Origin: Saprospiraceae bacterium
GTDB taxonomy: Bacteria > Bacteroidota > Bacteroidia > Chitinophagales > Saprospiraceae
Length of the DNA: 37,394 bases
NCBI GenBank assembly: GCA_020629965.1
Contig: JAHDCG010000054.1
Coordinates: 1-37,394 of the forward strand
Direction: 5' to 3'
In this document: piece by piece, positions 20,410-33,182 of the stretch
How the letters are laid out: each line of letters starts with the position of its first letter
Numbering within the stretch: the first letter of the stretch is position 1
The notes under the pieces: generated by a model
The model's input: only the letters and a program-made list of their open reading frames with translations
What the model was told of the DNA's origin: nothing
The model's database searches: none
Translations under genes and position numbers: made by a program

Positions 20410-23400
20410 CTACGGAGAACACAACGGGGTCGGACACGTAACCGTTATGAGGTATTCCTCCGTTTCACCGTCGGCGGCACAATCTCCGTTACCGCAGGGG
20501 CTCGTCGTACCGGCGTCGTCGGTGCTGACCCGCATTCGCAAAGCTAAGCCTTGATTTTTCTGCGCAGTCGTCGGCACCGTTACCGCTTGGTAAATGGTAA
20601 ATGTACCGTTATTGTCGGCGGCGGAAAAGACCTCGTCGGCAACCTGTTCGTCGGCGTCGTCAAAATCACCGTCACCGTTCCAATCTATCCACATCCGAAA
20701 ATAGGCGTCATCTCCCGAGGCATTGTAAATGACTACGGGCAGACGCAGATTTCCGCCGGCGACTATTCTTACGTTTTCGCCCAAAAGCAGCCCGTCGTCT
20801 GCATCGGAGTCCACGTTATCGCTTGCCCCGGGGTCGGCGGTTACTTCATTGCCGAAGTAAATATCGCTGTCGATAAAGTGACACGGTGCGGAGGGACAGG
20901 CGGCGTCGCAGCAATCGGGAAAGTCACGTTGTCGATAAAAGCCGAAATCTACGGTTAAATTACTGAACTCGTCGGCGGCGGCGGTACCGGTAGTGCTGCC
21001 CGCCGCATAGCTGCCGGGGGCTGTTTCGCCGGTCGGTTCCGTACCGCTCAAAGTAATGACTCCGGAGCGCACGGCTCCGTTGAAGGGAGTATCCAAGCCG
21101 TTATCGTTTAGGTCGCCGTTTGCGTTAGGATTACTTTCCTGCGCCGCGCCGTCGGTAGAAGAAAAGTGTTGTAAAGTACCGGATGCGGCAAAATTTGCGG
21201 CAGTAATTTCCACGATATAATCGCCTTCCGGCAAGTCGTCGAAACGATAATAACCGCCGTTGCCGGTAATCACCGTCAAAGGCTGTATGCCCGGAGTGTC
21301 GGGGTCGCTGTCGTAGGCAGAGCCGTCGGCATTCAACAGCAACAGCTCGATGCCGTCGATACCGGTTTCCGTGCCGTTTTGAGTGCCGTTTCGGTCAGAG
21401 TCATTAAAGACGCGATTTCCGAGCGAGTACACGGTAACGGCACAGTCGAGTGCCGGCGTCGTAATCGTCTCATCCGTAAAGCAGCCGTCCTCTCCGTTCC
21501 AGATGCGTACCGTGTATTCGGTGTCGTGCATCAAGCCGGTTAAAGTGCTGCTGCCCCCGCTGACATCCGTGTTGGAAGCGTCACCGTAGGCGGGACCGGT
21601 GTAGGTGCTGCCGGGGGAGGCGTTCGCTTGGTCGCCGTCGGTTACCTGTATGAGAGAAAGGGTCGCGTCGTCGTTCGGTGTATCGCCGGTGCAGCTGCCT
21701 TCTGCGGCGGCTAAATTTGCCGTCGGCGAAATACAATCCGTACAAGTCACTCCCAAATCGTATTTATGGTCACCGCAGCCCGTCTCTGCCGTAGTCATTG
21801 CGATAAACGGCAGACCGTCGGGGCGGTTGCCCAAACTGCCGCTTGTCAAAGTACTCGGATCGACATCGGAGTCGATTTTGTCATTATCGCCCGCGTCGAA
21901 GTCGGCGGTAATGCCGTAGTCGTTGCCGCCGAAAGTAAATTCACCGCCGGAAAATTGACCGTCACCGAAGACAATAAAATAATCGGTTTCGGCGGTCAGG
22001 CCCGTGTAGCTGCCCGAAGTCGCACTGCCGTCGGGATTAACTCCGTTGACATCGACGTTGGTTTCGTTAAAAGCATACTGTCCGCCGGCGGTCGTTGCGG
22101 TCAGACCGACGAGGGTGCCGGCTGCGTCGTAAAGCTGCACGGTCAGTCCGTCGATACCGCGCTCGCAGGCATCCTGAATGCCGTTTTGCAGGGAGTCGCA
22201 CCAGACGTAGTTGCCGATTTCGAGGGGGGCGGCGTCGCACATAACTTCCGTATCACCGATACCCGCCGCTTTGGCGAAAGTTTGCGTATCGCCGTTTTCG
22301 TATAACTCATAGGAGCGGGTCCGATTTCCGTCTTGAGTGCTGAGCCAAATTACACCGCCGGCGTTGACATTGTCATTATCTACTCTCAAGCCCGGATCAA
22401 AAGCGGACATAAAAACCTCTCCCTTTCCTTTTACCAATCCTACTTGTCCCAAAGTAATTTCCGAGTGCAGTGAGAAAGGATGGGTAGGAGAATAATTGTC
22501 TTCCCCGAAAAATTCTCCGCCTCCGATACCTTCGTTATTTCCGATACCGACGGCAGAGGAGCGATTGCCGACGCTGCCGTTGTTTTCGACTGTCCAAGTG
22601 CCGTTACCGTTGTCGGCAAAAATCACCACATCTCCCGCATTCACTCCGTCAAAATTACCCGAAATACAACTGTTGTTTGCAGAACTGTACTGAACACCCG
22701 TCTGATCTCCGAAACGATCGGCGATGCCGAGGATTAAAAATTGTTCTTCATCAAACTCAATGTCCCAGGCCCAAGGTTGCGGATAAAAAGCCAAGTCGTC
22801 TCCGTTGTCACAAAGAAAGGTTTCGGTATTTATCCATGGGTTCCATGTGCCCGGTGAGCTTCTGCCGGCTGAATTGGACGGTCGTGTATAATTCAAATCC
22901 GCCTCGGCAACTTTTGTATGAATGCCGTTTTCAAATTTATACACATAAGCAGCCAGATAGTCTTCGGGGTTACCCGCTGCTGTACCGATATTTTCGGCGG
23001 TGCAGGTCAGCGTGTAGTAAAGTACACCTTTTTCAATTGCCAAACCGCCGGGGCGTAAATTGTAATCAAGCTCGCCCGCCGGAGTATCGGGGTGCTGCGG
23101 ACAATCTGCCGGCACCGCAAAATCATGGGTTTGAAAATTTTGTGAAGCAATATCTATTTCGTACAGTTTGCGGTCGAAAAGATTAACCGCCCACAGCGTC
23201 TGTCCGTCTTCCGAAACTTCAACATCCGCTAAGCCTGTTTTTCCGACAAAATCCCACACGTCGTCGTGCTCTTGATTTAAATCGGCGTATTGGTGAACAT
23301 CGTTACCGGCGGGTAATTCCGTAAAAGTGTTTACTGCTCCGCTGTTGACATCTATGCTGAAAATTCTGCCCGGAGCAGCATTATCCGTAGCGTTACCGTA

Positions 23401-26400
23401 ACCGACAAATGATTTGAAATAGGCTGCGGCATAGATTGTTTCGTTATCACGTCGATATGCCAAGCCCTTGACAGGACCTACCTCGGTGTCTAAAGCCAAA
23501 GAAGTATAGGCAGGCATATTCAAATTGCCGCCCGACGAATTATCCTGTGAAACATCGGTCACTCCCGACTCATAGGGGAAACTGACGACGGAAGAAAGAC
23601 CGTCGCTCTGGGTGCCGCTCGTAAAGCAGGTAGTCACAATCATCGGATTCTCCTGACAATAATCAGCCGAACTGCTGACACTAAACTCGGTACAAGCCGG
23701 GGCGGTAACGAACTGCACATCCGAGCCGTTGTCCGTGCCGAGGTGAGTCGGCTGCGCCCAACAGGCTACGGACTCGGGCAGTACGAACTCTACCCGGTAG
23801 GCTTCCGTATCGTTCAAACCGCAAACCTGCCAATTGCCCTGCCCGTCGGAGTAGGTCGAACCGACTAAAGTATTTTCACAATCATAAATCAAAGCCTGTA
23901 CTCCCGTTACGCCGGGTTCGTTGGGGTCATCCGCACCGTTGCAGTTAAAATCTTCAAAGACATTACCGCCGATACAGCCGGATTGAGCCGTACAGTCTCC
24001 GACGGGGTCGGGGCAGGGGGTAGGGGTTTTGAGGCTGCGGCTTTCGGAGCAACCGCCCTCGGCAGTATAAGCGGCGGTAAAATTTTGCCGGCCGGTACCG
24101 TCGGCAGAGGCAGAGGTCGTAAACAAGGCGGGGCTGCTGTCTGTCGCAGTATCTATGGTACCGATAACCGCGCCGTTATGAGTGACCTCGATGGTTTCCG
24201 CACCGCCACAGAGCGCGACCTCCCAAGAGACGGTCACGTCATAATCTGCGGTAAAGTTATTACTCCCGCCGTCGGTACAATCGGTTTGCGCGACTTCCAA
24301 AGCAAGCGAAGCCACTCTGACGTTGAAAGTAATATCGACGGAGCCGCATTGGGTATTGGAGCCGGACTTGGTAAAAGTACCGCAGGCATTCGGGCCCGTG
24401 ACGGTGATGCTTTGATCGCAATCATCGTAAGTAAAGCCGGTATTGGCGGGGTCTTCTTCCCACATTTGCGCGCAGACGATGCCTTCACAGGAAAAAATTT
24501 CGTTTAGGAACAATTTTTGCCCGACGCCTGCCTCGCACAGAAGAGTATCCGTTACTATAGGTGAGTCGGTCGGGCAACATTCGGTACTAACGGCAATGCC
24601 CTTCGCGGAAGAAGAGGTGCCGGTAGTCGGAACAGCGGCTCCTAAATAATTCAAATCGGTATCGAAGAGAGATACGCAATCATCGGTAGCTGATTGAGTA
24701 GAAACATACAGAAAACCGGACATTTGACTGTATTCGATACCGATAGCTCTGTGCCATCCGCCGTCACCACCGGTCATATCCCAGGCTGTTTGAGCAACCA
24801 ATGCTCCGGTATTATCATATTTTAAGATTTTGCCGTTGCCGCTTGCATACACGCCCGCATTGATAACAACGTAGATATTGCCGTCATTATCTCCTTGCAC
24901 ACCGGCTATATAAAAGCGCGGCAAGCAAGTCATCCCGATGGTAATATCCGTAGTCGGGCAGACGGTCAAAAATTCGTCTATCGTGTTTCCGTCCGTCATT
25001 TCAGATAAATTCCAGCGGTATAAAATACTACCTGTGGTACTTCCGAATGCTTCCGTTGCATAAAAGGTTTCGGTTATTTTGTTGAAACTGAAACCCCAAT
25101 CCTGCCCCGCTGCTCCCGAAGAATTTTCAAAGGTTATGCTGCCCTCCGAATTACCCGTACACAGGTCGTAAAATTCAAGTTGTTGGTTGTACCAATCGTT
25201 GGCAAAAAGAATATTGCCTACCGACTCTAAATTAGTGGGTGCTCTTTGTATGTTGAATTCCGCCGCCGGAACAATTTCTCCCGCACAATTCAGTTTTCTG
25301 ATGCGACCGTTTGGTTGAAGTCCCTCTCCGATATAAAGATTTCCGTTTAAATCCATACCCAACCCGTGGGGCGAAGGCAACTGTGAAGTACCGCTGCCCG
25401 GATACCAGGCATTTCCGTTTACTAATATTTCAGACACACTTCCGTCGGCAGGGTTTATCTCGTATTTGTGTACTTTACCGCCGTCGGTCGTTTCGTTGAG
25501 GTACATATAATCAATGCAATTACAAGATACGGGCGGCGGCGGATTCTGAGTTTGGCGAAAGCCGAAGTCATAAGAATGATTATTTTCCCCCGCATCACCG
25601 AGCAGAAACGCAGCTTCGGCGGTATCGCCGGTTTTCATGCCGTCGGAGTCGCGCAGGTCGCCGTTTGTCGAAGAGTCGGCATCGTTGCTCGTAATAAACA
25701 GACCCGACAAATTTGCCTGCTGTGAGCCGCCTTCGGCATCCGGGATGCGCACTTTGTAATTTTCGGCGGCAGCCAAGCCGAGATTATAAATAAAGGCGGC
25801 GGTAGAAGTGCCGACGGCGGTTGAGAAAATGTAATTTCCCTCGGCATCAGTTACGGCGGTAGCGAGGACATTATCGGCGGCATCGGTCAATTCTACGTTT
25901 ACCCCGGCAATGCCGCTTTCGTCGGCATCCTGAATACCGTCGCCGTCGTCGTCGCTCCATACGCGATTACCGATTTCTACGGGGGCGGGGGCACAAAGCA
26001 ATTCTACATCACCGAGCCCCAAAGCTTTATTTAGGGTTGCGCCGCCGTTACTACCGTCAAAAATCAGATAGCCGTCGTCTTTCCAACCGTCGGTGTTGTT
26101 TAACCAAACTATGCCTCCCGAAGTATTTGAAAGAGGATTCATAGAGCTGGAAATGACATTATTCGACCCGGCAAGCAAAGCGATTGCTCCCTGAGTATTT
26201 TCTTTATGAGAACCGCTGTTTTCCAGTTCGTCTCCGCTGTAATATTCCTGCCCGTTAATACCGCGACCGTCGTTAGAGGCATCGGGATGCAGAGGGGTAA
26301 CACAGCCTCCGGTTCCTTCTAAAAAATAGGTGTCGTCAATCTTACATACGCGAATAACATCTCCGCCGATTTCCCCGGAATACAACGTATTGTCCGCAGG

Positions 26401-27891
26401 ATCTACACTGCTGTTATTGTTCCCGACTTGAAAGCCCAATCTGTCTCCGAAACCTAAAATAATCGAACCGTCGATGTCAAACTCTAAATCGGTTATAATC
26501 GGCTGCGGATAACCGGCTTCTCTGTCGTCGGGGTTAGTGCTCCAGACTATTTGGTCAAAATCGGTAACCCAGGCATTCCATTGCCGCCTAAACGGAACGT
26601 CACCGTTGCCCGGTGAGTCGCGTCTTTCCTGTATGTTTATCGGTCCGAACTCCGTGGTAAAAGAATTGCCATCCAGCTTCATTACATAAGCAAACAATTC
26701 GTCTCGGGCATCTGCGGGATCGGTCAAGGCGGTGGTTTGTCCGGTACAAACGACGCCCGCATAGAGAGAACCCCGATATAGTTTTAAGCCCCATACTCTG
26801 TAATCTCCGTTTGTACAACCCGGGTCTAAGCCGGTGTCATATTTGGTCACGGTTCCGACAGCAGCCGGAGCATCGGTCGAAACAACCGACGATACATCGA
26901 TACTGTACACGGAGTTGTCTGATAAATTTGACACCCAAAGGGTATTTCCGTCTTCGGAAACTTCAATATCTCCGAAAGACATTTTTCCGATTAAGTCGAA
27001 TATTTCGGGGTCGCGCGAAAGTTGCGGTCCCGGCTGCCATGAAGTATTTGTACGAGGGTCGGGAACGGCAGTGACCACATTAGATAAGTCGAGGTGTCCC
27101 TGTAAAACAGGCACAATCGGATCGGAATAATCAAACATATAGATTGCGTAGGCTCCCGCAGGTCCGAAAGCAGAGTGCCTCTTAGCGACCGATGCGGCAT
27201 ACACTCTGCTGTTTTTTCGGTCGTACGCGGTGCCGTAGGTAGTACCGATATCGTCATGGTCGGCGGAATAAATGTGGTCGTCCGAATTTTCACCCGTACT
27301 CGAAAATTTGAAGCCGACGAAGGCGGGTTCTTCTCCGTTCGGTCCGCCGTCGGCAGTTAATGCTTGATTAGCGAAACAAGGAATAACTAAAGGAGGATCA
27401 TTACTGTGACAGTAAAAGGCAGGATAATTAATCGCAAAATCAGCTTCGGTCGTTGCTGTCGTATAAAATTGAATGTCCGAAAAATTTTGTCCTCCCATTG
27501 CCGTCGGGAAATCAGTGCTTTGATAGCCCGTAAATTCAATTCTTACGGGAAAGCTGAGTCCGGAAAAATTGTAGTTGCCCGCTGCATCCGAAACTTGAGT
27601 TCCGCCGACTTGCACACCTGACGGATTGTATGCTCTTATTTCTATGTTCGGTACACCGATTTCGTTGTATTCGCTCTGCGTATCAAAACTGCCGTTGCCG
27701 TTAAAATCGTAATACACTTTTCCGGATACCTGAGCAAAAATGCCTTGACCGACCGGTAAAATAAAACAAACCAAAAAGGCGTATTTTCTCGCTGCAAAAT
27801 TTAGTCTGCGAGTTGATAAAGTCGAAAAAAACCGAACCAAAAACAAAAAGGTATCAGTATCTGTTTTTTTTGATTTGAATAAGTTATTCAT
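20410..27891 (-). CDS. Giant (2493-aa) secreted surface/adhesin-like protein: five SdrD-B/Cna-B-type Ca-binding repeats, two internally duplicated beta-propeller-like modules, and a C-terminal GEVED domain
   Basis: Signal-like hydrophobic segment AFLVCFILPVGQGIFAQ. Repeated D-x-N-x-N-G-x-x-D motifs (YYDFNGNGSFD, FEDFNCNGADD, VWSDDDGDGIQD, VWCDSLQNGIQD, VFNDSDRNGTQN). The two halves are clearly paralogous (…SFGDIEVSEDGNTLWVSNLSDNSVYSIDVS versus …GLADVEVSEDGQTLWAVNLFDRKLYEIDIAS). The C-terminus carries WIDWNGDGDFDD...DGETEEY (GEVED-like). The N-terminus is uncertain: 36 aa precede the signal peptide. Confidence 0.85.
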   Translation of the reverse strand: MNNLFKSKKTDTDTFLFLVRFFSTLSTRRLNFAARKYAFLVCFILPVGQGIFAQVSGKVYYDFNGNGSFDTQSEYNEIGVPNIEIRAYNPSGVQVGGTQVSDAAGNYNFSGLSFPVRIEFTGYQSTDFPTAMGGQNFSDIQFYTTATTEADFAINYPAFYCHSNDPPLVIPCFANQALTADGGPNGEEPAFVGFKFSSTGENSDDHIYSADHDDIGTTYGTAYDRKNSRVYAASVAKRHSAFGPAGAYAIYMFDYSDPIVPVLQGHLDLSNVVTAVPDPRTNTSWQPGPQLSRDPEIFDLIGKMSFGDIEVSEDGNTLWVSNLSDNSVYSIDVSSVVSTDAPAAVGTVTKYDTGLDPGCTNGDYRVWGLKLYRGSLYAGVVCTGQTTALTDPADARDELFAYVMKLDGNSFTTEFGPINIQERRDSPGNGDVPFRRQWNAWVTDFDQIVWSTNPDDREAGYPQPIITDLEFDIDGSIILGFGDRLGFQVGNNNSSVDPADNTLYSGEIGGDVIRVCKIDDTYFLEGTGGCVTPLHPDASNDGRGINGQEYYSGDELENSGSHKENTQGAIALLAGSNNVISSSMNPLSNTSGGIVWLNNTDGWKDDGYLIFDGSNGGATLNKALGLGDVELLCAPAPVEIGNRVWSDDDGDGIQDADESGIAGVNVELTDAADNVLATAVTDAEGNYIFSTAVGTSTAAFIYNLGLAAAENYKVRIPDAEGGSQQANLSGLFITSNDADSSTNGDLRDSDGMKTGDTAEAAFLLGDAGENNHSYDFGFRQTQNPPPPVSCNCIDYMYLNETTDGGKVHKYEINPADGSVSEILVNGNAWYPGSGTSQLPSPHGLGMDLNGNLYIGEGLQPNGRIRKLNCAGEIVPAAEFNIQRAPTNLESVGNILFANDWYNQQLEFYDLCTGNSEGSITFENSSGAAGQDWGFSFNKITETFYATEAFGSTTGSILYRWNLSEMTDGNTIDEFLTVCPTTDITIGMTCLPRFYIAGVQGDNDGNIYVVINAGVYASGNGKILKYDNTGALVAQTAWDMTGGDGGWHRAIGIEYSQMSGFLYVSTQSATDDCVSLFDTDLNYLGAAVPTTGTSSSAKGIAVSTECCPTDSPIVTDTLLCEAGVGQKLFLNEIFSCEGIVCAQMWEEDPANTGFTYDDCDQSITVTGPNACGTFTKSGSNTQCGSVDITFNVRVASLALEVAQTDCTDGGSNNFTADYDVTVSWEVALCGGAETIEVTHNGAVIGTIDTATDSSPALFTTSASADGTGRQNFTAAYTAEGGCSESRSLKTPTPCPDPVGDCTAQSGCIGGNVFEDFNCNGADDPNEPGVTGVQALIYDCENTLVGSTYSDGQGNWQVCGLNDTEAYRVEFVLPESVACWAQPTHLGTDNGSDVQFVTAPACTEFSVSSSADYCQENPMIVTTCFTSGTQSDGLSSVVSFPYESGVTDVSQDNSSGGNLNMPAYTSLALDTEVGPVKGLAYRRDNETIYAAAYFKSFVGYGNATDNAAPGRIFSIDVNSGAVNTFTELPAGNDVHQYADLNQEHDDVWDFVGKTGLADVEVSEDGQTLWAVNLFDRKLYEIDIASQNFQTHDFAVPADCPQHPDTPAGELDYNLRPGGLAIEKGVLYYTLTCTAENIGTAAGNPEDYLAAYVYKFENGIHTKVAEADLNYTRPSNSAGRSSPGTWNPWINTETFLCDNGDDLAFYPQPWAWDIEFDEEQFLILGIADRFGDQTGVQYSSANNSCISGNFDGVNAGDVVIFADNGNGTWTVENNGSVGNRSSAVGIGNNEGIGGGEFFGEDNYSPTHPFSLHSEITLGQVGLVKGKGEVFMSAFDPGLRVDNDNVNAGGVIWLSTQDGNRTRSYELYENGDTQTFAKAAGIGDTEVMCDAAPLEIGNYVWCDSLQNGIQDACERGIDGLTVQLYDAAGTLVGLTATTAGGQYAFNETNVDVNGVNPDGSATSGSYTGLTAETDYFIVFGDGQFSGGEFTFGGNDYGITADFDAGDNDKIDSDVDPSTLTSGSLGNRPDGLPFIAMTTAETGCGDHKYDLGVTCTDCISPTANLAAAEGSCTGDTPNDDATLSLIQVTDGDQANASPGSTYTGPAYGDASNTDVSGGSSTLTGLMHDTEYTVRIWNGEDGCFTDETITTPALDCAVTVYSLGNRVFNDSDRNGTQNGTETGIDGIELLLLNADGSAYDSDPDTPGIQPLTVITGNGGYYRFDDLPEGDYIVEITAANFAASGTLQHFSSTDGAAQESNPNANGDLNDNGLDTPFNGAVRSGVITLSGTEPTGETAPGSYAAGSTTGTAAADEFSNLTVDFGFYRQRDFPDCCDAACPSAPCHFIDSDIYFGNEVTADPGASDNVDSDADDGLLLGENVRIVAGGNLRLPVVIYNASGDDAYFRMWIDWNGDGDFDDADEQVADEVFSAADNNGTFTIYQAVTVPTTAQKNQGLALRMRVSTDDAGTTSPCGNGDCAADGETEEYLITVTCPTPLCSP

Positions 27892-28642
27892 GGGAAAATG
27901 AATTATGAATTGTGTTTATTTGAAAGGAAAATGACCCTTTTTTTGCAGAAGGAAATACAGTTTTGCGTACCTAAGTAAAATTGATATTCGGGCTGTCCTT
28001 CCTTTGACTCTTCAACAATTTTTGCATTCTTCTTCGACGCGGCTAAAATTCCTTATGCCGATGACTCGGCTTAACAAAAGACTTTAGACCACTAACGGTC
28101 AGGAAGAATCACAGACTCGACAAGTCCCGTAACGGAATATGCGAATTTAAAAAAATGCTGATATTTAGTTTTGAGTACAGAAAAAATGCACAGTCGAAGT
28201 GACGGAGAAAGCGAGATAAGTAAAATAATCGTACCGAATAAAAGTCTGTATTGATATTGCAAATGACTATCGGAATTCTTTACTTTTTGTCGGCAACAAC
28301 TCGATAAACGGAGTATTTATCGTTTGCTGCGGGTATCATTGTTAAACATCAAATTTATTGCCGTCAACCGATAAAATCAAATATTATGCCGATAGATAGG
28401 ATATATTATATTGAAACTGAAGAAAAAATATAGCTGAGGATAAACTAAACTGTAGCATTGAAACCGCTTTGAACAGTACGGAACGCTACGCGTTTTTGTC
28501 AAGAGAAAAGGTAATTTTTCAATTTGAGATACCTGACTCGTTGAACTTTTTGTGAATTGGTGCAGTGTCGGCTTTTCCAAAGGGTCGTAACCATCGGGAG
28601 TCAGTTCTAAATCACCTGAAAACCGATTAAAATCATTTATTT

Positions 28643-29527
28643 TTACAGAAACGCAAACACCAAATACTCACCGAAAAACAGTACCCAAATAAACCGGTAA
28701 TAATTGAAAACGGAGTCTTGATTTTGTAAATTCGTGCGCAACATACCGAGCAATAATAACAGCAGAAAAAAACCGTGTACACCCGAAAAAAGCAAACTGT
28801 CCACCTGTACTTTAAACAGAAACGGAGCCAAAATACACAACACAAACAGCGTCATCATAATTACATTGCCGAAGGCAAAAACACGCCGCCGACCTAAGCG
28901 CACGGATAAGGTACGCACCGCAAATTTCGCGTCGCCCTCAGTATCGGGCAGGTCTTTAAACAGGGCAATAATGAGACTGTAAACCACAATCACTACCGTC
29001 AACAACCACACCAAAGGCGTAATGCTGTGCGCCCCGTTGATGTGCGCGTGAAAGTGCAAAAACAGCAACAAATTGACAATAATGCCGCGCACGGCAATGA
29101 TGCAAAACGCCGCCCAAAACGGATATTTTTTCAAGCGCAGCGGCGGCAGCGAATAAGCAATGCCGAGTGCCAAACTCAACAACACCGTCCACAGCAAATA
29201 ACCTCCGATGAAGACCGCCAAAATCAATGACACCGCCAAACCGATACCGACAATCAGCTTTCCCGTTTGCAGAGAAAACGCGCCCGAAGCTAACGGCAGA
29301 TAGGGTTTGTTGATTTTATCGATTTCAATATCCGTGATTTGATTCAAACCGACGATGAAAATATTCGCGCCGAGGCAGGCGATAATCGTCAATCCCAACA
29401 GCGAACCGTACATCTCCGTGCCGTCGGCGTACGACAGCGCAATGAGCCACAAGGTGACAATGCTCAACGTCGTGCCGATGATGGTGTGCAGACGCGAAAA
29501 ACGGATGAAATTGAGGAGGAAATGCAA
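28643..29527 (-). CDS. UbiA-superfamily prenyltransferase of the homogentisate phytyl/geranylgeranyl-transferase (HPT/VTE2-like) type
   Basis: Nine predicted TM segments. First Asp-rich motif in the HPT-specific form NQITDIEIDKINKPYLPLASG (N-Q instead of N-D, and IDK-x-NKP-x-LPL). Second motif KDLPDTEGD. Confidence 0.8.
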   Translation of the reverse strand: MHFLLNFIRFSRLHTIIGTTLSIVTLWLIALSYADGTEMYGSLLGLTIIACLGANIFIVGLNQITDIEIDKINKPYLPLASGAFSLQTGKLIVGIGLAVSLILAVFIGGYLLWTVLLSLALGIAYSLPPLRLKKYPFWAAFCIIAVRGIIVNLLLFLHFHAHINGAHSITPLVWLLTVVIVVYSLIIALFKDLPDTEGDAKFAVRTLSVRLGRRRVFAFGNVIMMTLFVLCILAPFLFKVQVDSLLFSGVHGFFLLLLLLGMLRTNLQNQDSVFNYYRFIWVLFFGEYLVFAFL

Positions 29528-29583
29528 ATAAATGTTTATTTGTTGATTCGGTTATTTGTTTATTTGGCGGCAGACGCCGGCGG

Positions 29584-30426
29584 TTATTTTTCTCCTTGCA
29601 GCAAGGCAAATTTCAGCAGACCGCGCTTGTAGCCTTCCGTCATATACCGCATCGTCCACGCGCCTTTGAGAGCGGGGGCACCGGCTTTGAGCAAGCCCGT
29701 GACGCTTTTCCAGCTAAAGGCGGATTTAATCACGGCTTTCCAAAAAGGAGCGACTTCATCCGTCCAGTCTTCGGTTTTGATATTTTTAAAGCCCGTTTGT
29801 TGCGCAAATTCGGCGTATTCCGACATCGGTATCATTGGCGGCAGATGGTAATTTTTGTAGATTTTTTGCAGCAGTTTTTGCTCGTCGTCGGTCAGTTCAC
29901 TTTGCGGCGCGCGAACGCACCAAGTGACCATCAGCAGCTTTCCGCCGGGCTGTAAAAGGTCGTAAAACATTTGTACCAGACCGCTTTTATCCGCGATGTG
30001 TTCCGCACTTTCGAGCGACCAAATGAGGTCTTTGTTCGGCTGTTCCGTATCGCCCAAAGTCATCATGTCCTGCACGCGAATCTCGACTTTGTCCTGCAAA
30101 TTTGCCCGCCGATTGTAGTGCGCCGCCCGCTCCGCCTGCACCGAGCTGAGAGTGACGCCCGTTACGTTTGCGCCGTATTTATGCGCTAAATACCGCGCAC
30201 TGCCGCCGACTCCGCAGCCCGCGTCGATGATGCGCTGCGGTCGCTGCACCTCGCCCCATTCGAGCAACCTTTCCACCAATTCGACCTGCGCCTCGCGGTG
30301 ACTGACGGCGGGTTTACCCTCCGTACCGTACCAGCCGTGATGCATGTGCTCGCCCCACACATCGAGCCACAGCGGCGTACTGACGTCGTAGAAGTTTTTG
30401 ATGTCGGCGTTTAATGTGTTCGGCAT
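29584..30426 (-). CDS. SAM-dependent methyltransferase of the gamma-tocopherol methyltransferase (VTE4-like) family
   Basis: Start taken at the internal Met (MPNTLNADIKNFYD...). The track ORF extends to 30558 through a low-complexity leader. Family-specific motifs: FYDVSTPLWLDVWGEHMHHGWY, SAM motif IIDAGCGVGGSARYLA, WSLESAEH, GGKLLMVTWC, and C-terminal VAPFWKAVIKSA...KGAWTMRYMTEGYKRGLLKFA. Confidence 0.8.
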   Translation of the reverse strand: MPNTLNADIKNFYDVSTPLWLDVWGEHMHHGWYGTEGKPAVSHREAQVELVERLLEWGEVQRPQRIIDAGCGVGGSARYLAHKYGANVTGVTLSSVQAERAAHYNRRANLQDKVEIRVQDMMTLGDTEQPNKDLIWSLESAEHIADKSGLVQMFYDLLQPGGKLLMVTWCVRAPQSELTDDEQKLLQKIYKNYHLPPMIPMSEYAEFAQQTGFKNIKTEDWTDEVAPFWKAVIKSAFSWKSVTGLLKAGAPALKGAWTMRYMTEGYKRGLLKFALLQGEK

Positions 30427-30533
30427 AATTCCTTTTTTTTTTGAATTGTTGGAGTGGTTGGAGTCGTTGGAATGGTTTGAGTTGTCGCGCCCGGGCAACC
30501 GGCAACCGGCAACCGACAACCGACAACTAAAAA

Positions 30534-31478
30534 TTACCGTTTTTTCCCCAACCACCAAGCCAATGCCACCACCCCGACGGCGAGCGCACCGAGTACGGTT
30601 TTCTGCTCCGTGTTGAGGGTTTCGCGCATTTCGGGCGGCAGATGTTTTTGGCGGTCGCCGTGTACGAGATAGCCGACCAAAGCAATCGGAATGAAGATAA
30701 AACCGGCGAGCGAACCGAGCGCAACCCGACCAATCATCAGGGCGGTGCGGGCGACGGTCATTTCTTCGTCCTGCGGTTTTAAGGCGGACACGACGGCAAC
30801 CGAGTCACCGGGGGCGGGCTTGGGTTTGGGCTTAGCGTCCATTGGTTTGTCACCGGCGATGGCGATGCCGAAGTGCGTTTTGCCGGGCGTAAACCAGTGC
30901 GGGTCCACATAGACGTAGCGGATATTTTCAAAGCCTGCTTCTTCGTAAAATTTGAAATAATCTTTTTCGGGCGGAAAGAGCATCCAGGTCGTCGCGAAAA
31001 AGCGACCGACGGGATTTCCGGGTTCTATCGGACCGATGAGCAAAGCCGTGCCGCCGGGTTTGACGACGCGAAAAGCCTCATCGACGCCCCGCTGCGGGTC
31101 GGGCCAATACTCGATACTGCCGGCACTCACGTAGCGGTCGAAAGTATCGTCCGGGTAAGGAATATTTTCGGCGTCGCCGATGCGAAAAGTACAATCCTGC
31201 AGGTCGGGTTTCGCCTTTGCCTTCGCCATTTGTTGGTGGCTTTGATCCACGCAGAACACATTGTGCGCGGGCACGCGCTTGACAATGCCCTGCGTCGTAA
31301 AACCGGTGCCGGAGCCTACGTCGATAACTTTCAGATTCGGGTCGTCGAGTTTGCCGATGTCCAGTGATTCTTCGCGCATTCTGACCGTCCAAAAGAGGGG
31401 GTTGACGAGGTTGTCGTAGAAGTTGGAGAGGAAATAGTAGAACCAGTAGGCTTCTTTTTTATGTTGTACTAATTGCAT
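30534..31478 (-). CDS. SAM-dependent methyltransferase of the MPBQ/MSBQ methyltransferase (VTE3-like) family with C-terminal membrane anchor
   Basis: YYFLSNFYDNLVNPLFWT, VIDVGSGTGFTTQGIVK, DQSHQQMAKAKAK, GDAENIPYPDDTFDRYVSAGSIEYWPDPQRG, GGTALLIGP, and RFFATTWMLFP, collinear with plant VTE3/APG1. Two C-terminal TM helices. Confidence 0.8.
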   Translation of the reverse strand: MQLVQHKKEAYWFYYFLSNFYDNLVNPLFWTVRMREESLDIGKLDDPNLKVIDVGSGTGFTTQGIVKRVPAHNVFCVDQSHQQMAKAKAKPDLQDCTFRIGDAENIPYPDDTFDRYVSAGSIEYWPDPQRGVDEAFRVVKPGGTALLIGPIEPGNPVGRFFATTWMLFPPEKDYFKFYEEAGFENIRYVYVDPHWFTPGKTHFGIAIAGDKPMDAKPKPKPAPGDSVAVVSALKPQDEEMTVARTALMIGRVALGSLAGFIFIPIALVGYLVHGDRQKHLPPEMRETLNTEQKTVLGALAVGVVALAWWLGKKR

Positions 31479-31528
31479 TTTTTTTGAGACTTTAGACGTT
31501 AGATTTTAGATGTTAGAATTCCGAACGG

Positions 31529-31783
31529 TCAGATTTTAGACTTAGCATTGTTCTTCTGCATAAGCGGTGCAACTTCGATTTCGGCGGCGGTCGCGTCGCG
31601 GTGCGTGATGGTCGTAACGGGGCAAATCGCCTCGCAAACCATACAGGCAATATCGCAAACGGTATTGACGGCGATGGTATCGAAGTCACTGATGAACGGC
31701 TCGGGCTGCGGACAAACCGCCACGCAGGCTCCGCAGTTTATGCAGGCATTCCAGCCGATATCGAAAAGGACGGGTTTGTTCAT
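31529..31783 (-). CDS. Small 2x[Fe-S] ferredoxin
   Basis: Start taken at the internal Met (MNKPVLFDIG...). CINCGACVAVCP (CxxCxxCxxxCP) and CDIACMVCEAICP cluster motifs. The longer track ORF (to 31888) would read through the 61-bp palindromic repeat. Confidence 0.75.
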   Translation of the reverse strand: MNKPVLFDIGWNACINCGACVAVCPQPEPFISDFDTIAVNTVCDIACMVCEAICPVTTITHRDATAAEIEVAPLMQKNNAKSKI

Positions 31784-31820
31784 TTTTTTGTTTTGTTCTG
31801 TTTTTAATCGGGTGTGGGAA

Positions 31821-31881
31821 GGTTGCCGTTTTTTACTCACAGGGTGACTCAAAGTCACCTTTTGAGTAAAAAACGGCAACC
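31821..31881. repeat. Copy 3 of the nested-palindrome repeat, here a 61-bp near-perfect palindrome between the GGR stop and the ferredoxin start (inside the operon)
   Basis: ggttgccgttttttactca-c-agggtgact-caaa-gtcacc-ttt-tgagtaaaaaacggcaacc. Outer stem 19 bp, inner stem 7 bp. No flanking U-tract on either strand. Confidence 0.8.
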
Positions 31882-31891
31882 GATACACCCA

Positions 31892-33070
31892 TCAAATCTT
31901 CTTATACTCCGAATCCGGACTAAAATAATCCGACATAATCTTATACAACTTACGATTGCGCTCTTCCAAATCTTCGGTTTTAAAAATTTCGGTTTTCTCG
32001 TCGTAGAGCTTCCACATTTTATTGCCGAGCTTTTCGAGCCAATTATCTTGATAGCCTTTTAGGTCTGCTTTTTTAAATGCGCCGCCGCTGTTGATTTGTT
32101 CGACCAAAAAATCCGCCGCGATTTTGCCACCGCTGAGCGCCGTGTGGATGCCGCCGCCCGTTATCGGGTTGACGTGGCGCGCGGCGTCGCCGACGAGGAC
32201 TAAATTATCGGCGTACTGCGTTTTCAGCGGTGCCGCGAGGGGGACGCCGCCGCCCTGTATTTCTAAGATGCGGGCATTTTTAAAGCGGTCGCCGAAGAAA
32301 GATTGTTTGATAAATTTGTCGAGTTGCTCGCGGGCGTTGAGTTCCGTAACGGTCGGGATGACCCCGAGTCCGATTTCGGCGTAGCCGTGCCCTTTGGGGA
32401 AGACCCAAGCGTAGCCGCCGGGTGCCCATTCGTGACCGGTGATGATTTCCAGCAAGCCTTCCGTTTCGACTTTATCGACGATAAATTGCAGACAACTCGC
32501 CAGCTCCGTCAGTCTGATTTGAGTGCGCAGTCCCGCCCATTTTCCGACCACGGATTGCAGACCGTCCGCACCGACGAGGACTTTACAGCGCAGGGTCATT
32601 TTTTCGTTGAAGCGGCGCACATCGACCTCGCAGGTGCCGTCGGGCTGCGGGCGGTAGCCGAGTCCTTCCGTTTTGAGGTAGGTTTCCGCACCCGCTCTTT
32701 CGGCGAGGGTCATCAGATGCCGATCGAAGCGGCGGCGGTCCACAACGTAGCCGAGGGGTGATTTATCCGCGCTTCCGCCGTATTTTTCGGGGGCGAGTCG
32801 GCGGTAATCAATCGTTTTTTTATCGCCTTTTTCATTGTAAATACCGAAGCCGTAGATGGGTTCCAAAATAAATTCCGCGTCGGGTCTGATGCCGACTTCT
32901 TCCAGTCCGTGCCGGCTGACGGCGCCGCTGCACTGAATGGGTGCGCCGAGTTCCTGCTTTTTATCGAGCAGTAAGACTTGCAAGCCCCGATTTGCCGCGA
33001 GTCGTGCGACGGTAGCCCCGGCGGGTCCGCTGCCGATGATGATGAGGTCGTAAAGTGTATTTTCGGACAT
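31892..33070 (-). CDS. Geranylgeranyl reductase family flavoprotein (GGR/ChlP-like, FAD-dependent)
   Basis: N-terminal FAD fold DLIIIGSGPAGATVARLAANRGLQVLLLDKK. PIQCSGAVS (PxxCGxxxS). GADGLQSVV and GDAARHVNPITGGGI motifs typical of the TIGR02032-type GGR family. 392 aa. Confidence 0.85.
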   Translation of the reverse strand: MSENTLYDLIIIGSGPAGATVARLAANRGLQVLLLDKKQELGAPIQCSGAVSRHGLEEVGIRPDAEFILEPIYGFGIYNEKGDKKTIDYRRLAPEKYGGSADKSPLGYVVDRRRFDRHLMTLAERAGAETYLKTEGLGYRPQPDGTCEVDVRRFNEKMTLRCKVLVGADGLQSVVGKWAGLRTQIRLTELASCLQFIVDKVETEGLLEIITGHEWAPGGYAWVFPKGHGYAEIGLGVIPTVTELNAREQLDKFIKQSFFGDRFKNARILEIQGGGVPLAAPLKTQYADNLVLVGDAARHVNPITGGGIHTALSGGKIAADFLVEQINSGGAFKKADLKGYQDNWLEKLGNKMWKLYDEKTEIFKTEDLEERNRKLYKIMSDYFSPDSEYKKI

Positions 33071-33182
33071 AAGAAGATTGGAATGTGTGGTAGAAAGAGC
33101 ATTTTATTTTCGCCCTTTGCAGAGTAACGGGGGAGGTCGGGTTAAGTTTGCCGAGAAAAAATTTAAGCCGATATTTTCTCAC

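What the first reader, a model, noticed from the sequence alone, without database searches (positions are those of the whole stretch)
28643..33070. Five-gene operon resembling a tocopherol / methyl-prenyl-benzoquinol pathway (GGR, ferredoxin, VTE3-like MT, VTE4-like MT, HPT-like prenyltransferase) in a Bacteroidota-type genome
Five co-directional minus-strand genes run in order 33070 to 28643 with short spacers. They encode a geranylgeranyl reductase, a small ferredoxin (the likely electron donor, as archaeal GGRs need a dedicated adjacent ferredoxin), an MPBQ/MSBQ-methyltransferase-like enzyme, a gamma-tocopherol-methyltransferase-like enzyme, and a UbiA enzyme with the homogentisate-prenyltransferase-specific NQxxDxEIDKxNKPxLPL motif. 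In plants and cyanobacteria these activities make phytyl-PP from GGPP, condense it with homogentisate (VTE2), and methylate the quinol (VTE3) and chromanol (VTE4) rings to give tocopherols. Tocochromanol synthesis is regarded as a trait of oxygenic phototrophs. The surrounding genes (T9SS cargo, GEVED, SdrD-B adhesin, no SD sequences) argue for a non-photosynthetic Bacteroidota host. A tocopherol cyclase (VTE1) and a homogentisate-producing HPPD are not in the window. The product could therefore be an uncyclised dimethyl-phytyl-benzoquinol (a plastoquinol-like antioxidant or quinone) or, with a cyclase encoded elsewhere, genuine tocopherol or tocotrienol. The tight clustering of all prenyl-side-chain and ring-tailoring steps in one operon is the strongest system-level signal in the window. 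It may be a horizontally acquired antioxidant or novel lipoquinone pathway.
Basis: partly seen in the sequence, partly recalled or inferred. Interest (0 to 1): 0.85.

Follow-up and report, generated by a model that had tools for sequence, protein, structure and literature searches.

The report
Vitamin-E-type lipid genes in non-photosynthetic bacteria
A non-photosynthetic Bacteroidota bacterium (family Saprospiraceae) carries a compact, conserved five-gene cluster whose enzymes match those that plants and cyanobacteria use to build the vitamin E skeleton; this matters because vitamin-E-type lipids are thought to be made only by oxygenic phototrophs, but no product has been measured.

Summary
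Five co-directional minus-strand genes lie at 28643-33070, with spacers of 50-108 nt.

- **UbiA enzyme:** it passes NCBI's curated equivalog model for homogentisate phytyltransferase (332 bits, cut-off 226). It scores far below cut-off for ChlG, MenA, UbiA and the archaeal lipid prenyltransferases.
- **MT2:** it is 44-48% identical to the methyltransferase that sits beside HPT in cyanobacterial tocopherol clusters.
- **MT1:** it belongs to a family that JGI and NCBI name MPBQ/MSBQ methyltransferase.
- **Reductase:** it is an archaeal-type geranylgeranyl reductase, always followed by its own ferredoxin (8 of 8 loci).

The module recurs in about 20 Saprospiraceae, Lewinella and Chitinophagales loci, including cultured Phaeodactylibacter luteus, with unrelated flanks and host-like codon composition.

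A second Bacteroidota clade of HPT-like genes sits beside DUF92 genes, the family that I recall includes the plant phytyl-phosphate kinase VTE6. That supports phytyl diphosphate as the prenyl donor.

No tocopherol cyclase or HPPD was found in the window or in any related Bacteroidota locus. I could not scan whole genomes. The end product is therefore open: an uncyclised methyl-phytyl-benzoquinol or a true tocopherol.

I found no paper describing this. I rate it a new variant of a known pathway, supported by sequence only.

The parts
31892..33070 (-). Geranylgeranyl reductase, archaeal type (392 aa). Proposed to saturate the C20 geranylgeranyl chain to phytyl, either on GGPP or after prenylation.
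   Evidence: TIGR02032 GG-red-SF scores 231 bits (cut-off 159) and Pfam GGR_cat is present. The best solved relative is Thermoplasma digeranylgeranylglycerophospholipid reductase 3oz2 at 193 bits. The ChlP/BchP models fall below cut-off (114 vs 343; 66 vs 505). The sequence carries GxGxxG, Cys47 (QCSGA), PGGYAWVFP (the PxxYxWxFP motif) and LVGDAA, which PMC10821996 lists for archaeal GGRs. Saprospiraceae homologues are 66-73% identical.
31529..31783 (-). Small dicluster-type ferredoxin (84 aa). Proposed dedicated electron donor of the GGR.
   Evidence: Pfam Fer4 and Fer4_9 hit. The motifs are CINCGACVAVCP and CDIACMVCEAICP, giving 8 Cys. It directly follows GGR in all 8 related loci that have a GGR (L001, L002, L005, L006, L007, L045, L057, L085). 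It is absent wherever GGR is absent. Precedent: the M. acetivorans GGR needs the ferredoxin encoded in the same locus (PMC10821996).
30534..31478 (-). MT1, a plant-VTE3-type MPBQ/MSBQ C-methyltransferase with a C-terminal membrane anchor (314 aa). Proposed to methylate 2-methyl-6-phytyl-benzoquinol to the 2,3-dimethyl form.
   Evidence: Its homologues are named 'MPBQ/MSBQ methyltransferase' by JGI, and by NCBI for a Neolewinella MAG. It is 48% identical over 271 aa to Arabidopsis VTE3 as recalled from memory, against about 30% to gamma-TMT or Sll0418. Generic UbiE/MenG models fall far below cut-off (58 vs 158 bits). It is present in 10 of the 14 first-set Bacteroidota-type loci and in more metagenome loci.
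29584..30426 (-). MT2, a gamma-tocopherol-methyltransferase-type enzyme (280 aa). Proposed to add the last ring methyl; whether it acts on a chromanol or a quinol is unknown.
   Evidence: It is 44-48% identical to the gene directly upstream of HPT in Nostocales and in cyanobacterial HPPD-MT-HPT-VTE1 clusters L100/L101. It is 43% identical to Synechocystis slr0089, 39% to AtVTE4 and only 27% to Sll0418, all recalled sequences. Of 82 residues invariant in 43 phototroph homologues, 63 are kept in the window protein. Only 48 are kept in at least 90% of the Saprospiraceae-type set.
28643..29527 (-). Homogentisate phytyltransferase (VTE2/HPT family UbiA enzyme, 294 aa, TTG start). Proposed to condense homogentisate with phytyl-PP or GGPP.
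   Evidence: NCBIfam NF009525 (equivalog) scores 332 bits against a cut-off of 226. ChlG scores 72 (cut-off 313), UbiA 30, MenA 16 and DGGGPS-type models 48 or less. It is 42-50% identical to cyanobacterial HPTs. Of 44 residues invariant in 58 phototroph HPTs, 40 are kept. NCBI already names the P. luteus orthologue WP_147166103.1 'homogentisate phytyltransferase'.
33071..33182 (-). 112-nt spacer upstream of GGR; presumed promoter region, not identified.
   Evidence: Sequence read. No Bacteroidota -7 motif TAnnTTTG lies on the minus strand here or inside the cluster, and the sigma-70-type scan gives nothing convincing. Co-transcription with the upstream GldB-like gene cannot be excluded.
27892..28642 (.). 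About 750-bp AT-rich non-coding stretch that ends the cluster and separates it from the 2493-aa adhesin gene.
   Evidence: GC is about 0.39, no ORF has a family hit, and no clear intrinsic terminator was found.

Best explanation
The five genes form a self-contained biosynthetic module for a vitamin-E-type prenylated benzoquinol in a non-photosynthetic Saprospiraceae bacterium.

Proposed mechanism (every step is inferred from orthology and gene context; none has been demonstrated biochemically):
1. The archaeal-type geranylgeranyl reductase takes electrons from the ferredoxin encoded next to it. It saturates the C20 chain of geranylgeranyl diphosphate to phytyl diphosphate, or saturates the chain after it has been attached.
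2. The HPT-family UbiA enzyme condenses that prenyl diphosphate with homogentisate, supplied by an HPPD encoded elsewhere. The product is 2-methyl-6-phytyl-1,4-benzoquinol.
3. MT1 (VTE3 type) methylates this to 2,3-dimethyl-6-phytyl-benzoquinol.
4. MT2 (gamma-TMT type) adds a further ring methyl.

The acceptor in step 4 is the open point. No tocopherol cyclase is linked to the cluster in any of about 20 loci. My working reading is therefore that the module itself ends in methylated phytyl-benzoquinol/quinone (di- or trimethyl). Such a compound would act as a membrane antioxidant or redox lipid. True gamma/alpha-tocopherol would form only if an unlinked cyclase exists.
For: - **Gene identities:**
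- **Conservation:** the order GGR-Fdx-MT1-MT2-HPT is found in L001, L002, L005, L006, L057 (cultured Phaeodactylibacter luteus) and L085. GGR-Fdx-MT2-HPT is found in L007 and L045. MT1-MT2-HPT is found in the Lewinella/Neolewinella-type loci L035, L040, L042, L093 and L105. No other neighbour is conserved.
- **Reductase and ferredoxin:** they are gained and lost together, 8 of 8 loci. This matches the M. acetivorans precedent.
- **Link to cyanobacteria:** the MT2-HPT pair is shared with cyanobacteria, where it can sit in HPPD-MT-HPT-VTE1 clusters (L100, L101).
- **HPT conservation:** 40 of 44 phototroph-invariant residues are kept.
- **Independent support for a phytyl donor:** a second Bacteroidota clade of HPT-like genes still passes the HPT model (224-301 bits). 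It sits next to DUF92/TIGR00297 genes in 8 loci. DUF92 is the COG1836 family of the plant phytyl-phosphate kinase VTE6; that equation rests on my knowledge, and one search supports the VTE6-COG1836 link.
- **Native genes:** GC3 is 0.62-0.67, as in Obg and other window genes.
- **No linked cyclase:** tblastn and a 37-sequence VTE1 profile find VTE1 only in cyanobacterial or eukaryotic loci.
Against: - No chemistry exists: no lipid has been measured in any carrier.
- Characterised gamma-TMTs methylate chromanols, not quinols (established knowledge). A conserved MT2 therefore argues for a cyclase somewhere, which counts against my uncyclised end-product reading.
- The absence of a linked cyclase is weak evidence. 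Only 4 of about 60 cyanobacterial loci have HPT-VTE1 adjacency.
- Whole genomes of carriers could not be scanned for VTE1, HPPD or a GGPP synthase.
- The MT1 and MT2 reference comparisons use sequences recalled from memory.
- Substrate specificity of UbiA enzymes cannot be read from sequence, and no HPT structure exists.
- Co-transcription is inferred from spacing only.
Confidence: 0.62

Rival explanations
1. The bacteria make complete gamma/alpha-tocopherol. The cluster supplies phytyl-PP, HPT, VTE3 and VTE4 activities. A VTE1-type cyclase (or a non-homologous one) and HPPD are encoded elsewhere in the genome.
For: MT2 is a clear gamma-TMT-type protein, 44-48% identical to cyanobacterial genes in tocopherol clusters, and that family is known to act on chromanols. 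Variant clusters with MT2 as the only methyltransferase (L007, L045) make sense if a cyclase gives delta-tocopherol, which MT2 would then convert to beta-tocopherol. Unlinked VTE1 is normal: most cyanobacterial loci also lack VTE1 next to HPT.
Against: No VTE1 was found in the window or in about 34 Bacteroidota loci by tblastn or by profile HMM. Among the 150 best family representatives of VTE1 in 1.84 billion proteins, the eight divergent ones I checked by context were cyanobacterial, eukaryotic or uninformative; none was Bacteroidota. That sampling is incomplete. MT2 has lost 34 of 82 phototroph-invariant positions across the Saprospiraceae-type set, including the PF after motif II. This is compatible with a changed acceptor.
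Confidence: 0.3
2. The HPT-like enzyme uses a different aromatic acceptor or a different prenyl chain. The cluster would then make another methylated prenyl-aromatic lipid, for example a new respiratory or signalling quinone, unrelated to homogentisate chemistry.
For: UbiA-family specificity cannot be derived from sequence, and no solved HPT exists. The Saprospiraceae clade is separate from the cyanobacterial sequences (91/100 bootstrap) and its branching order is unresolved. No HPPD is linked in any Bacteroidota locus.
Against: The score is well above the curated HPT equivalog cut-off. Of 44 residues invariant in phototroph HPTs, 40 are kept. The enzyme co-occurs with two methyltransferases whose closest characterised relatives both act on homogentisate-derived rings. 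The C20-specific reductase, and the VTE6-like kinase genes next to the sister clade, point to phytyl rather than a long polyprenyl chain.
Confidence: 0.12
3. The genes belong to a different known pathway that uses a UbiA enzyme, a GGR and methyltransferases. Candidates are archaeal-type ether lipids (DGGGP synthase plus GGR), (bacterio)chlorophyll esterification (ChlG/BchG plus ChlP plus BchM), or menaquinone tailoring (MenA plus MenJ plus MenG).
For: The GGR is closest to archaeal lipid reductases. FCB-group bacteria with archaeal-lipid genes are on record (cited in PMC10821996).
Against: The UbiA enzyme fails every one of those models: DGGGPS-type 48 bits or less against cut-offs of 280-353, ChlG 72 vs 313, BchG 57 vs 212, MenA 16 vs 289. 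No G1P dehydrogenase, GGGP synthase, bch/chl or men genes are in the window or conserved next to the cluster. MenJ scores 72 vs 700, BchM 31 vs 159 and MenG/UbiE 58 vs 158.
Confidence: 0.03

Closest known systems
Cyanobacterial tocopherol genes (Synechocystis slr1736 HPT, slr1737 cyclase, slr0089 gamma-TMT; compact HPPD-gammaTMT-HPT-VTE1 clusters such as loci L100/L101 and L032 found here)
   Same: The HPT is of the same family (42-50% identity and the same curated HMM). The gamma-TMT-type gene lies directly upstream of HPT in the same order and orientation.
   Different: The cyanobacterial clusters carry the VTE1 cyclase and HPPD, which the Bacteroidota clusters never do in the DNA I hold. 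Cyanobacteria use a Sll0418-type quinol methyltransferase and a ChlP-type reductase encoded elsewhere. This cluster has a plant-type VTE3 and an archaeal-type GGR with ferredoxin. The host is not a phototroph.
Plant plastid vitamin E pathway (VTE2, VTE3, VTE1, VTE4; ChlP; VTE5/VTE6 phytol salvage)
   Same: Homologues of VTE2, VTE3 and VTE4 are all present. MT1 shares the VTE3 architecture, including the C-terminal membrane anchor (48% identity to recalled AtVTE3). A sister Bacteroidota clade pairs HPT-like genes with VTE6-family (DUF92) genes.
   Different: Plant genes are dispersed nuclear genes, whereas here they form one bacterial cluster. No VTE1 was found. Phytyl-PP is proposed to come from a ferredoxin-dependent archaeal-type GGR instead of the NADPH-dependent ChlP.
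Archaeal geranylgeranyl reductase with a locus-encoded ferredoxin (Methanosarcina acetivorans MA1484/MA1485; Thermoplasma GGR, PDB 3oz2)
   Same: The flavoenzyme subfamily is the same (TIGR02032; 193 bits to 3oz2), with the catalytic Cys47 and the PxxYxWxFP motif. A small 4Fe-4S ferredoxin gene is adjacent and co-inherited.
   Different: The archaeal enzymes saturate membrane ether lipids. Here the neighbours are quinol-pathway genes in a bacterium, and the lipid-reductase equivalog cut-offs are not reached (205 vs 780; 145 vs 580).
Methyl-plastoquinone pathway of Nitrospirota (PMC11874023)
   Same: It is a bacterial route to a tri-methylated benzoquinone lipid outside phototrophs. An NCBIfam model for its methyltransferase, MpqE, exists.
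   Different: That pathway starts from 4-hydroxybenzoate with UbiA/UbiD/UbiX/UbiH homologues and a long polyprenyl tail. MT1 scores only 30 bits against MpqE, whose cut-off is 335. This cluster is homogentisate/HPT-based with a C20 chain.

Membership tests
Homogentisate phytyltransferase (VTE2/HPT) family | Scores above the curated equivalog HMM cut-off and above all other UbiA-superfamily models | tested here: met
   NF009525 scores 332 bits (cut-off 226). The next best is ChlG at 72 bits (cut-off 313). Orthologues in L057, L042 and L045 score 288-341 bits.
Homogentisate phytyltransferase (VTE2/HPT) family | Two Asp-rich motifs (NQxxDxxxD and KDxxDxxGD) and residues invariant in phototroph HPTs | tested here: met
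   NQITDIEID and KDLPDTEGD are present. Of 44 residues invariant in 58 phototroph HPTs, 40 are kept.
Homogentisate phytyltransferase (VTE2/HPT) family | Catalyses decarboxylative prenylation of homogentisate with phytyl-PP | not testable with these tools
   This needs an enzyme assay or heterologous expression.
Tocopherol (vitamin E) biosynthetic pathway | MPBQ/MSBQ methyltransferase (VTE3 or Sll0418 type) present | tested here: met
   MT1 homologues are named MPBQ/MSBQ methyltransferase by JGI and NCBI. MT1 is 48% identical to recalled AtVTE3. No curated HMM for VTE3 was available, so this is homology and not an equivalog call.
Tocopherol (vitamin E) biosynthetic pathway | Gamma-tocopherol methyltransferase (VTE4) present | tested here: met
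   MT2 is 44-48% identical to the methyltransferase adjacent to HPT in cyanobacterial tocopherol clusters. It is 43% identical to recalled slr0089 against 27% to Sll0418. The substrate is untested, and 19 of 82 phototroph-invariant residues are changed in the window protein.
Tocopherol (vitamin E) biosynthetic pathway | Tocopherol cyclase (VTE1, PF14249) present | tested here: not met
   VTE1 is absent from the 37-kb window and from every Bacteroidota-type locus held, by tblastn and by profile HMM.
Tocopherol (vitamin E) biosynthetic pathway | Homogentisate supply (HPPD) | tested here: not met
   No HPPD is in the window or in the Bacteroidota loci; it occurs only in cyanobacterial L032, L059, L100 and L101. 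Genome-wide presence was not testable here.
Tocopherol (vitamin E) biosynthetic pathway | Tocopherol or tocotrienol detected in the organism | not testable with these tools
   This needs LC-MS. No paper was found on tocopherol in Saprospiraceae, Phaeodactylibacter or Bacteroidetes.
Geranylgeranyl reductase family (TIGR02032) | Passes the subfamily HMM and carries the catalytic motifs | tested here: met
   The score is 231 bits against 159. GxGxxG, Cys47, PGGYAWVFP and LVGDAA are read in the translation against the motif list in PMC10821996.
ChlP/BchP geranylgeranyl diphosphate reductase of phototrophs | Passes TIGR02023 or TIGR02028 | tested here: not met
   The scores are 114 vs 343 and 66 vs 505. 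The enzyme is closer to archaeal lipid reductases.
Archaeal GGR with dedicated ferredoxin | Ferredoxin gene adjacent to and co-inherited with the GGR | tested here: met
   The ferredoxin follows GGR in 8 of 8 loci with a GGR, and both are absent together elsewhere. Electron transfer itself was not tested.
Chlorophyll/bacteriochlorophyll synthase, MenA, UbiA, DGGGP synthase | Passes the respective curated model | tested here: not met
   All are far below cut-off: ChlG 72/313 and 43/436, BchG 57/212, MenA 16/289, UbiA 30/275, DGGGPS-type 48 or less against 280-353.

The most novel reading that the evidence does not exclude
Non-photosynthetic Bacteroidota synthesise vitamin-E-type lipids themselves: tocopherols or their methyl-phytyl-benzoquinol precursors. 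The carriers are Saprospiraceae and Lewinella through this GGR-ferredoxin cluster, and Flavobacteriaceae and Chitinophagaceae through a sister HPT-like gene linked to a VTE6-like phytyl-phosphate kinase, which would let them reuse phytol from algal chlorophyll. Tocochromanol-type antioxidants would then not be exclusive to oxygenic phototrophs. The plant-type VTE3 methyltransferase, which cyanobacteria lack, would have a large bacterial sister family bearing on its origin.
Probability: 0.5. Interest if true: 0.85.

Novelty: new variant of a known kind. Interest (0 to 1): 0.7.

Why it matters
Reviews state that tocochromanols are made solely by photosynthetic organisms (PMC5745509, abstract shown). 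A conserved and widespread gene module for the same chemistry in chemoheterotrophic, often alga-associated Bacteroidota would change that picture.

It would also point to an unrecognised lipid antioxidant or redox lipid in these bacteria. It offers a ferredoxin-driven, non-ChlP route to phytyl diphosphate that could be useful for engineering vitamin E production.

It bears on an old puzzle. Plants and cyanobacteria use unrelated MPBQ methyltransferases (Cheng et al. 2003, cited; the paper itself was not readable). The VTE3-type family now has more than 120 listed bacterial protein clusters (90% identity) at 55% identity or more to the window protein.

The question is directly testable, because cultured carriers exist: Phaeodactylibacter luteus KCTC 42180, Neolewinella aurantiaca, N. 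maritima and Lewinella sp. 4G2.

Tried and rejected
1. **Hunt for a cyclase.**
   - tblastn with Arabidopsis VTE1 (recalled), a cyanobacterial VTE1 and a divergent VTE1, plus a 37-sequence profile HMM, against all 178 loci and the window. Hits fell only in cyanobacterial or eukaryotic DNA.
   - The search for homologous proteins with a cyanobacterial VTE1 and with a divergent one. The 120 rows listed were, where named, cyanobacterial, so Bacteroidota members, if any, were not visible.
   - A full-library representative search: 1145 relatives, 150 listed. I checked eight divergent representatives by genomic context. P0135 sits with cyanobacterial DUFs. The P0148/P0282 clade lies on a contig whose GH57 gene is 66% identical to that of Anabaena. 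P0153 sits with cyclin and F-box genes and is eukaryotic. P0143 looks eukaryote-like. P0123, P0154 and P0295 were uninformative.
   - I predicted a VTE1 structure (pLDDT 87.6) in order to list organisms through AFDB. Both AFDB libraries were unavailable.
   - Outcome: there is no evidence for a Bacteroidota VTE1, but its absence is not proven.
2. **Extra conserved genes near the cluster.** None is shared across the family. Three Chitinophagales variants share a secreted 208-aa protein, an Amino_oxidase-family flavoprotein and a 158-aa membrane protein. I judged this to be local synteny of close relatives, not part of the module.
3. **Promoters and terminators.** The sigma-70-type and Bacteroidota -7 motif scans gave nothing usable.
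4. **RNA elements.** No Rfam or tRNA hit in the window.
5. **Recent horizontal transfer.** Rejected on composition.
6. **Nesting of the Saprospiraceae HPT inside cyanobacteria.** The NJ bootstrap cannot decide: cyanobacteria-plus-plant monophyly has only 31/100 support.
7. **Literature.** Ten searches found no report of these genes or of tocopherol in these bacteria. Cheng et al. 2003 could not be read.

Full report
**1. Observation**

The window is a whole 37,394-bp contig of an NCBI metagenome-assembled genome. Between 28643 and 33070 it carries five minus-strand genes in a row:
- GGR, 31892-33070.
- A small ferredoxin, 31529-31783.
- MT1, 30534-31478.
- MT2, 29584-30426.
- A UbiA-family enzyme, 28643-29527.

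The spacers are 108, 50, 107 and 56 nt, and every start codon has an A-rich leader without a Shine-Dalgarno sequence. The same protein lengths were called independently in the public protein collection.

A 750-bp AT-rich gap separates the last gene from a 2493-aa adhesin gene. The rest of the window is Bacteroidota in character:
- T9SS sorting domains on an M36 peptidase and on a CotH protein.
- A GldB-like gene.
- An SdrD-B/GEVED giant protein.

The window holds no RNA gene or Rfam element.

**2. What the genes are**

*UbiA enzyme.* It scores 332 bits on NCBIfam NF009525, the equivalog model for homogentisate phytyltransferase (cut-off 226). It scores far below cut-off on ChlG (72/313), BchG, UbiA, MenA and the archaeal DGGGP-synthase models. 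Both Asp-rich motifs are present. Of 44 residues invariant in 58 cyanobacterial and plant HPTs, 40 are kept. NCBI's pipeline already names the Phaeodactylibacter luteus orthologue 'homogentisate phytyltransferase'.

*MT2.* It is 44-48% identical to the methyltransferase that lies directly upstream of HPT in Nostocales. The same relationship holds for two cyanobacterial loci, L100 and L101, where the order is HPPD, MT, HPT, VTE1. Against sequences that I recalled from memory, and which are therefore unverified, it is 43% identical to Synechocystis gamma-TMT slr0089, 39% to Arabidopsis VTE4 and only 27% to Sll0418.

*MT1.* It belongs to a large family whose members JGI names 'MPBQ/MSBQ methyltransferase'; NCBI uses that name for a Neolewinella MAG. 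It is 48% identical over 271 residues to recalled Arabidopsis VTE3 and shares its C-terminal membrane segment. Generic UbiE/MenG models fall far below cut-off.

*Reductase.* It passes the geranylgeranyl-reductase subfamily model (231/159) but not the ChlP/BchP models. Its best solved relative is the Thermoplasma archaeal lipid reductase 3oz2. It has Cys47 and the PxxYxWxFP motif listed for archaeal GGRs in PMC10821996.

*Ferredoxin.* It has eight cysteines in two cluster motifs.

No close solved structure exists for the HPT or for either methyltransferase.

**3. Related loci**

A scan of one genome per prokaryotic species found the closest HPT relatives (47-61% identity) in Saprospiraceae, Chitinophagales and Lewinella/Neolewinella MAGs, and in cultured Phaeodactylibacter luteus KCTC 42180. 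Cyanobacteria follow at 42-50%.

| Arrangement | Loci |
|---|---|
| GGR-Fdx-MT1-MT2-HPT (all five genes) | L001, L002, L005, L006, L057, and L085 from a microbial mat |
| GGR-Fdx-MT2-HPT | L007, L045 |
| MT1-MT2-HPT | L035, L040, L042, L093, L105, L103 |
| MT1-MT2-HPT interrupted by an aldehyde dehydrogenase on the other strand | L022 |

Nothing else is conserved around the cluster. It therefore behaves as a self-contained module placed in different neighbourhoods.

GGR and the ferredoxin are always present together or absent together (8 of 8 loci). This fits the precedent that the M. acetivorans GGR needs the ferredoxin encoded in its own locus.

The cluster genes have the same GC3 (0.62-0.67) as housekeeping genes of the window. 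The Saprospiraceae-type HPTs form one clade with 91/100 NJ bootstrap support. Whether that clade is sister to cyanobacteria plus plants or nested among them is unresolved (31/100). This is an old, vertically maintained trait of the group and not a recent transfer.

MT1 homologues at 55% identity or more fill all 120 listed rows of the protein search. They include Neolewinella aurantiaca, N. maritima and Lewinella sp. 4G2, so cultured carriers exist.

**4. A second Bacteroidota clade**

HPT-like genes at 36-40% identity occur in Flavobacteriaceae, Chitinophagaceae and Sphingobacteriaceae MAGs, in an Anaerolineae MAG and in a MAG labelled Rhizobium. The four I scanned score 224-301 bits on the HPT model, so one is just under the cut-off of 226.

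In eight of these loci the neighbour is a membrane protein of the DUF92/TIGR00297 family. To my knowledge this is the COG1836 family of the plant phytyl-phosphate kinase VTE6. The VTE6-COG1836 link is stated in PMC9782597, but I could not confirm the DUF92 equation from a paper.

In six loci a 240-aa protein lies directly upstream. It has a DLCSGSGEP motif and only a faint methyltransferase hit.

Two different ways of obtaining phytyl diphosphate are therefore each found next to HPT-like genes in Bacteroidota: a reductase with ferredoxin, or a phytyl-phosphate kinase. This independently supports a C20 phytyl donor.

**5. The missing cyclase**

Neither tblastn nor a profile HMM finds a VTE1 or an HPPD in the window or in any Bacteroidota-type locus. 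Both are found in cyanobacterial loci: L032, L036, L100 and L101 for VTE1, and L032, L059, L100 and L101 for HPPD.

I could not scan whole carrier genomes. Two protein searches with VTE1 queries listed only cyanobacterial names among their top 120 rows. A search of 1.84 billion representatives gave 1145 relatives. The divergent ones I examined by context were cyanobacterial, eukaryotic or uninformative. A route through AlphaFold-database organism lists failed because those libraries were unavailable.

Absence of linkage is weak evidence, since only 4 of about 60 cyanobacterial loci have HPT next to VTE1.

MT2 is less constrained than HPT. Only 48 of 82 phototroph-invariant positions are kept across the Saprospiraceae-type set, and the PF after motif II is lost. 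That is compatible with a changed acceptor but does not prove one.

**6. Mechanism**

The best-supported reading is a pathway from homogentisate and a C20 prenyl diphosphate to methylated phytyl-benzoquinol:
1. GGR plus ferredoxin make the phytyl chain.
2. HPT attaches it to homogentisate.
3. MT1 gives the 2,3-dimethyl quinol.
4. MT2 adds a further methyl.

All of these steps are inferred. The acceptor of MT2, and therefore the end product, is open: a trimethyl quinol/quinone, or gamma/alpha-tocopherol through an unlinked cyclase. I put 0.62 on the homogentisate-derived prenylquinol pathway as a whole and about 0.3 on true tocopherol. Other acceptors get about 0.12. Ether-lipid, chlorophyll or menaquinone readings are excluded by the HMM scores.

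**7. Comparison, novelty and verdict**

The module combines three elements:
- A cyanobacteria-like gamma-TMT/HPT pair.
- A plant-type VTE3, which cyanobacteria do not use.
- An archaeal-type GGR with its ferredoxin.

It lacks the cyclase and HPPD of compact cyanobacterial clusters. It differs from the 4-hydroxybenzoate-based methyl-plastoquinone pathway of Nitrospirota.

Single genes are already named by annotation pipelines. Even so, ten full-text searches found no report of the cluster or of tocopherol-type lipids in these bacteria, and reviews state that only photosynthetic organisms make tocochromanols.

I rate it a new variant of a known kind, with interest 0.7. Two corrections apply: the trait is old in this lineage, and the cyclisation step is not encoded in the cluster.

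Noticed in passing
L047, L049, L053, L054, L113, L116, L117, L122 (for example L049:1170-2672 minus strand, next to HPT-like L049:2728-3729): A second clade of HPT-like genes occurs in Flavobacteriaceae-type and other Bacteroidota loci. Each lies next to a DUF92/TIGR00297 membrane protein, the family of plant VTE6 phytyl-phosphate kinase to my knowledge. In the Flavobacteriaceae type this protein is about 500 aa with an uncharacterised N-terminal membrane half.
   Followed up: partly
L050:9285-10004, L048:9298-9990, L047:3861-4574, L052:9141-9971, L118:9025-9747, L122:1809-2528: A conserved 240-aa protein lies directly upstream of the second-clade HPT-like gene and overlaps its start. It has DLCSGSGEP and MFNAFHHF motifs and a hydrophobic C-terminal half. 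Pfam gives only Methyltransf_25 at E=0.048, so it may be an undescribed methyltransferase family.
   Followed up: partly
L100:3791-8278 and L101 (metagenome contigs Ga0209181_10005593 and Ga0163144_10023272); also L032:3511-6759: These are compact cyanobacterial tocopherol clusters with HPPD (opposite strand), a gamma-TMT-type methyltransferase, HPT and the VTE1 cyclase side by side. They served as a useful reference arrangement.
   Followed up: yes
L045:10526-13496, L007:2986-5044, L004:1937-4182: Chitinophagales variants of the cluster lack MT1. Downstream they share a 208-aa secreted protein, a 557-aa Amino_oxidase-family flavoprotein (CrtI-like) and a 158-aa membrane protein. It is unclear whether these belong to the pathway.
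   Followed up: partly
L057:4522-6063 (Phaeodactylibacter luteus, minus strand): An HMG-CoA synthase gene of the mevalonate pathway lies about 700 bp upstream of the GGR, divergently oriented. This could be isoprenoid-supply linkage in this one species.
   Followed up: no
L082:10001-11011, L164:9857-10867 (proteins P0282, P0148): A small, divergent clade of 336-340-aa tocopherol-cyclase-family proteins is only 34-41% identical to ordinary cyanobacterial VTE1. It lies on contigs with a TonB-dependent receptor, but a neighbouring GH57 gene is 66% identical to that of Anabaena, so the host is probably an unusual cyanobacterium.
   Followed up: partly
window 9750-11417 (+): A fusion of a response-regulator receiver domain with a thioredoxin-reductase-like pyridine-nucleotide-disulphide oxidoreductase (555 aa).
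   Followed up: no
window 20410-27891 (-): A 2493-aa secreted protein has five SdrD B-like repeats and ends in a GEVED domain; Pfam reports no T9SS sorting domain in it. Two further large ORFs have no Pfam hit: 12671-14110 (479 aa) and 17913-19925 (670 aa).
   Followed up: no
window 2055-5630 (-) and L005:10385-13888: An M36 fungalysin-type metallopeptidase with PA, DUF11 and MAM-like domains and a T9SS sorting tail. A homologue lies near the cluster in the station-ALOHA Saprospiraceae MAG.
   Followed up: no
window 27892-28642: A 750-bp AT-rich (GC about 0.39) non-coding stretch between the cluster and the adhesin gene. No family, RNA or repeat is assigned to it.
   Followed up: partly
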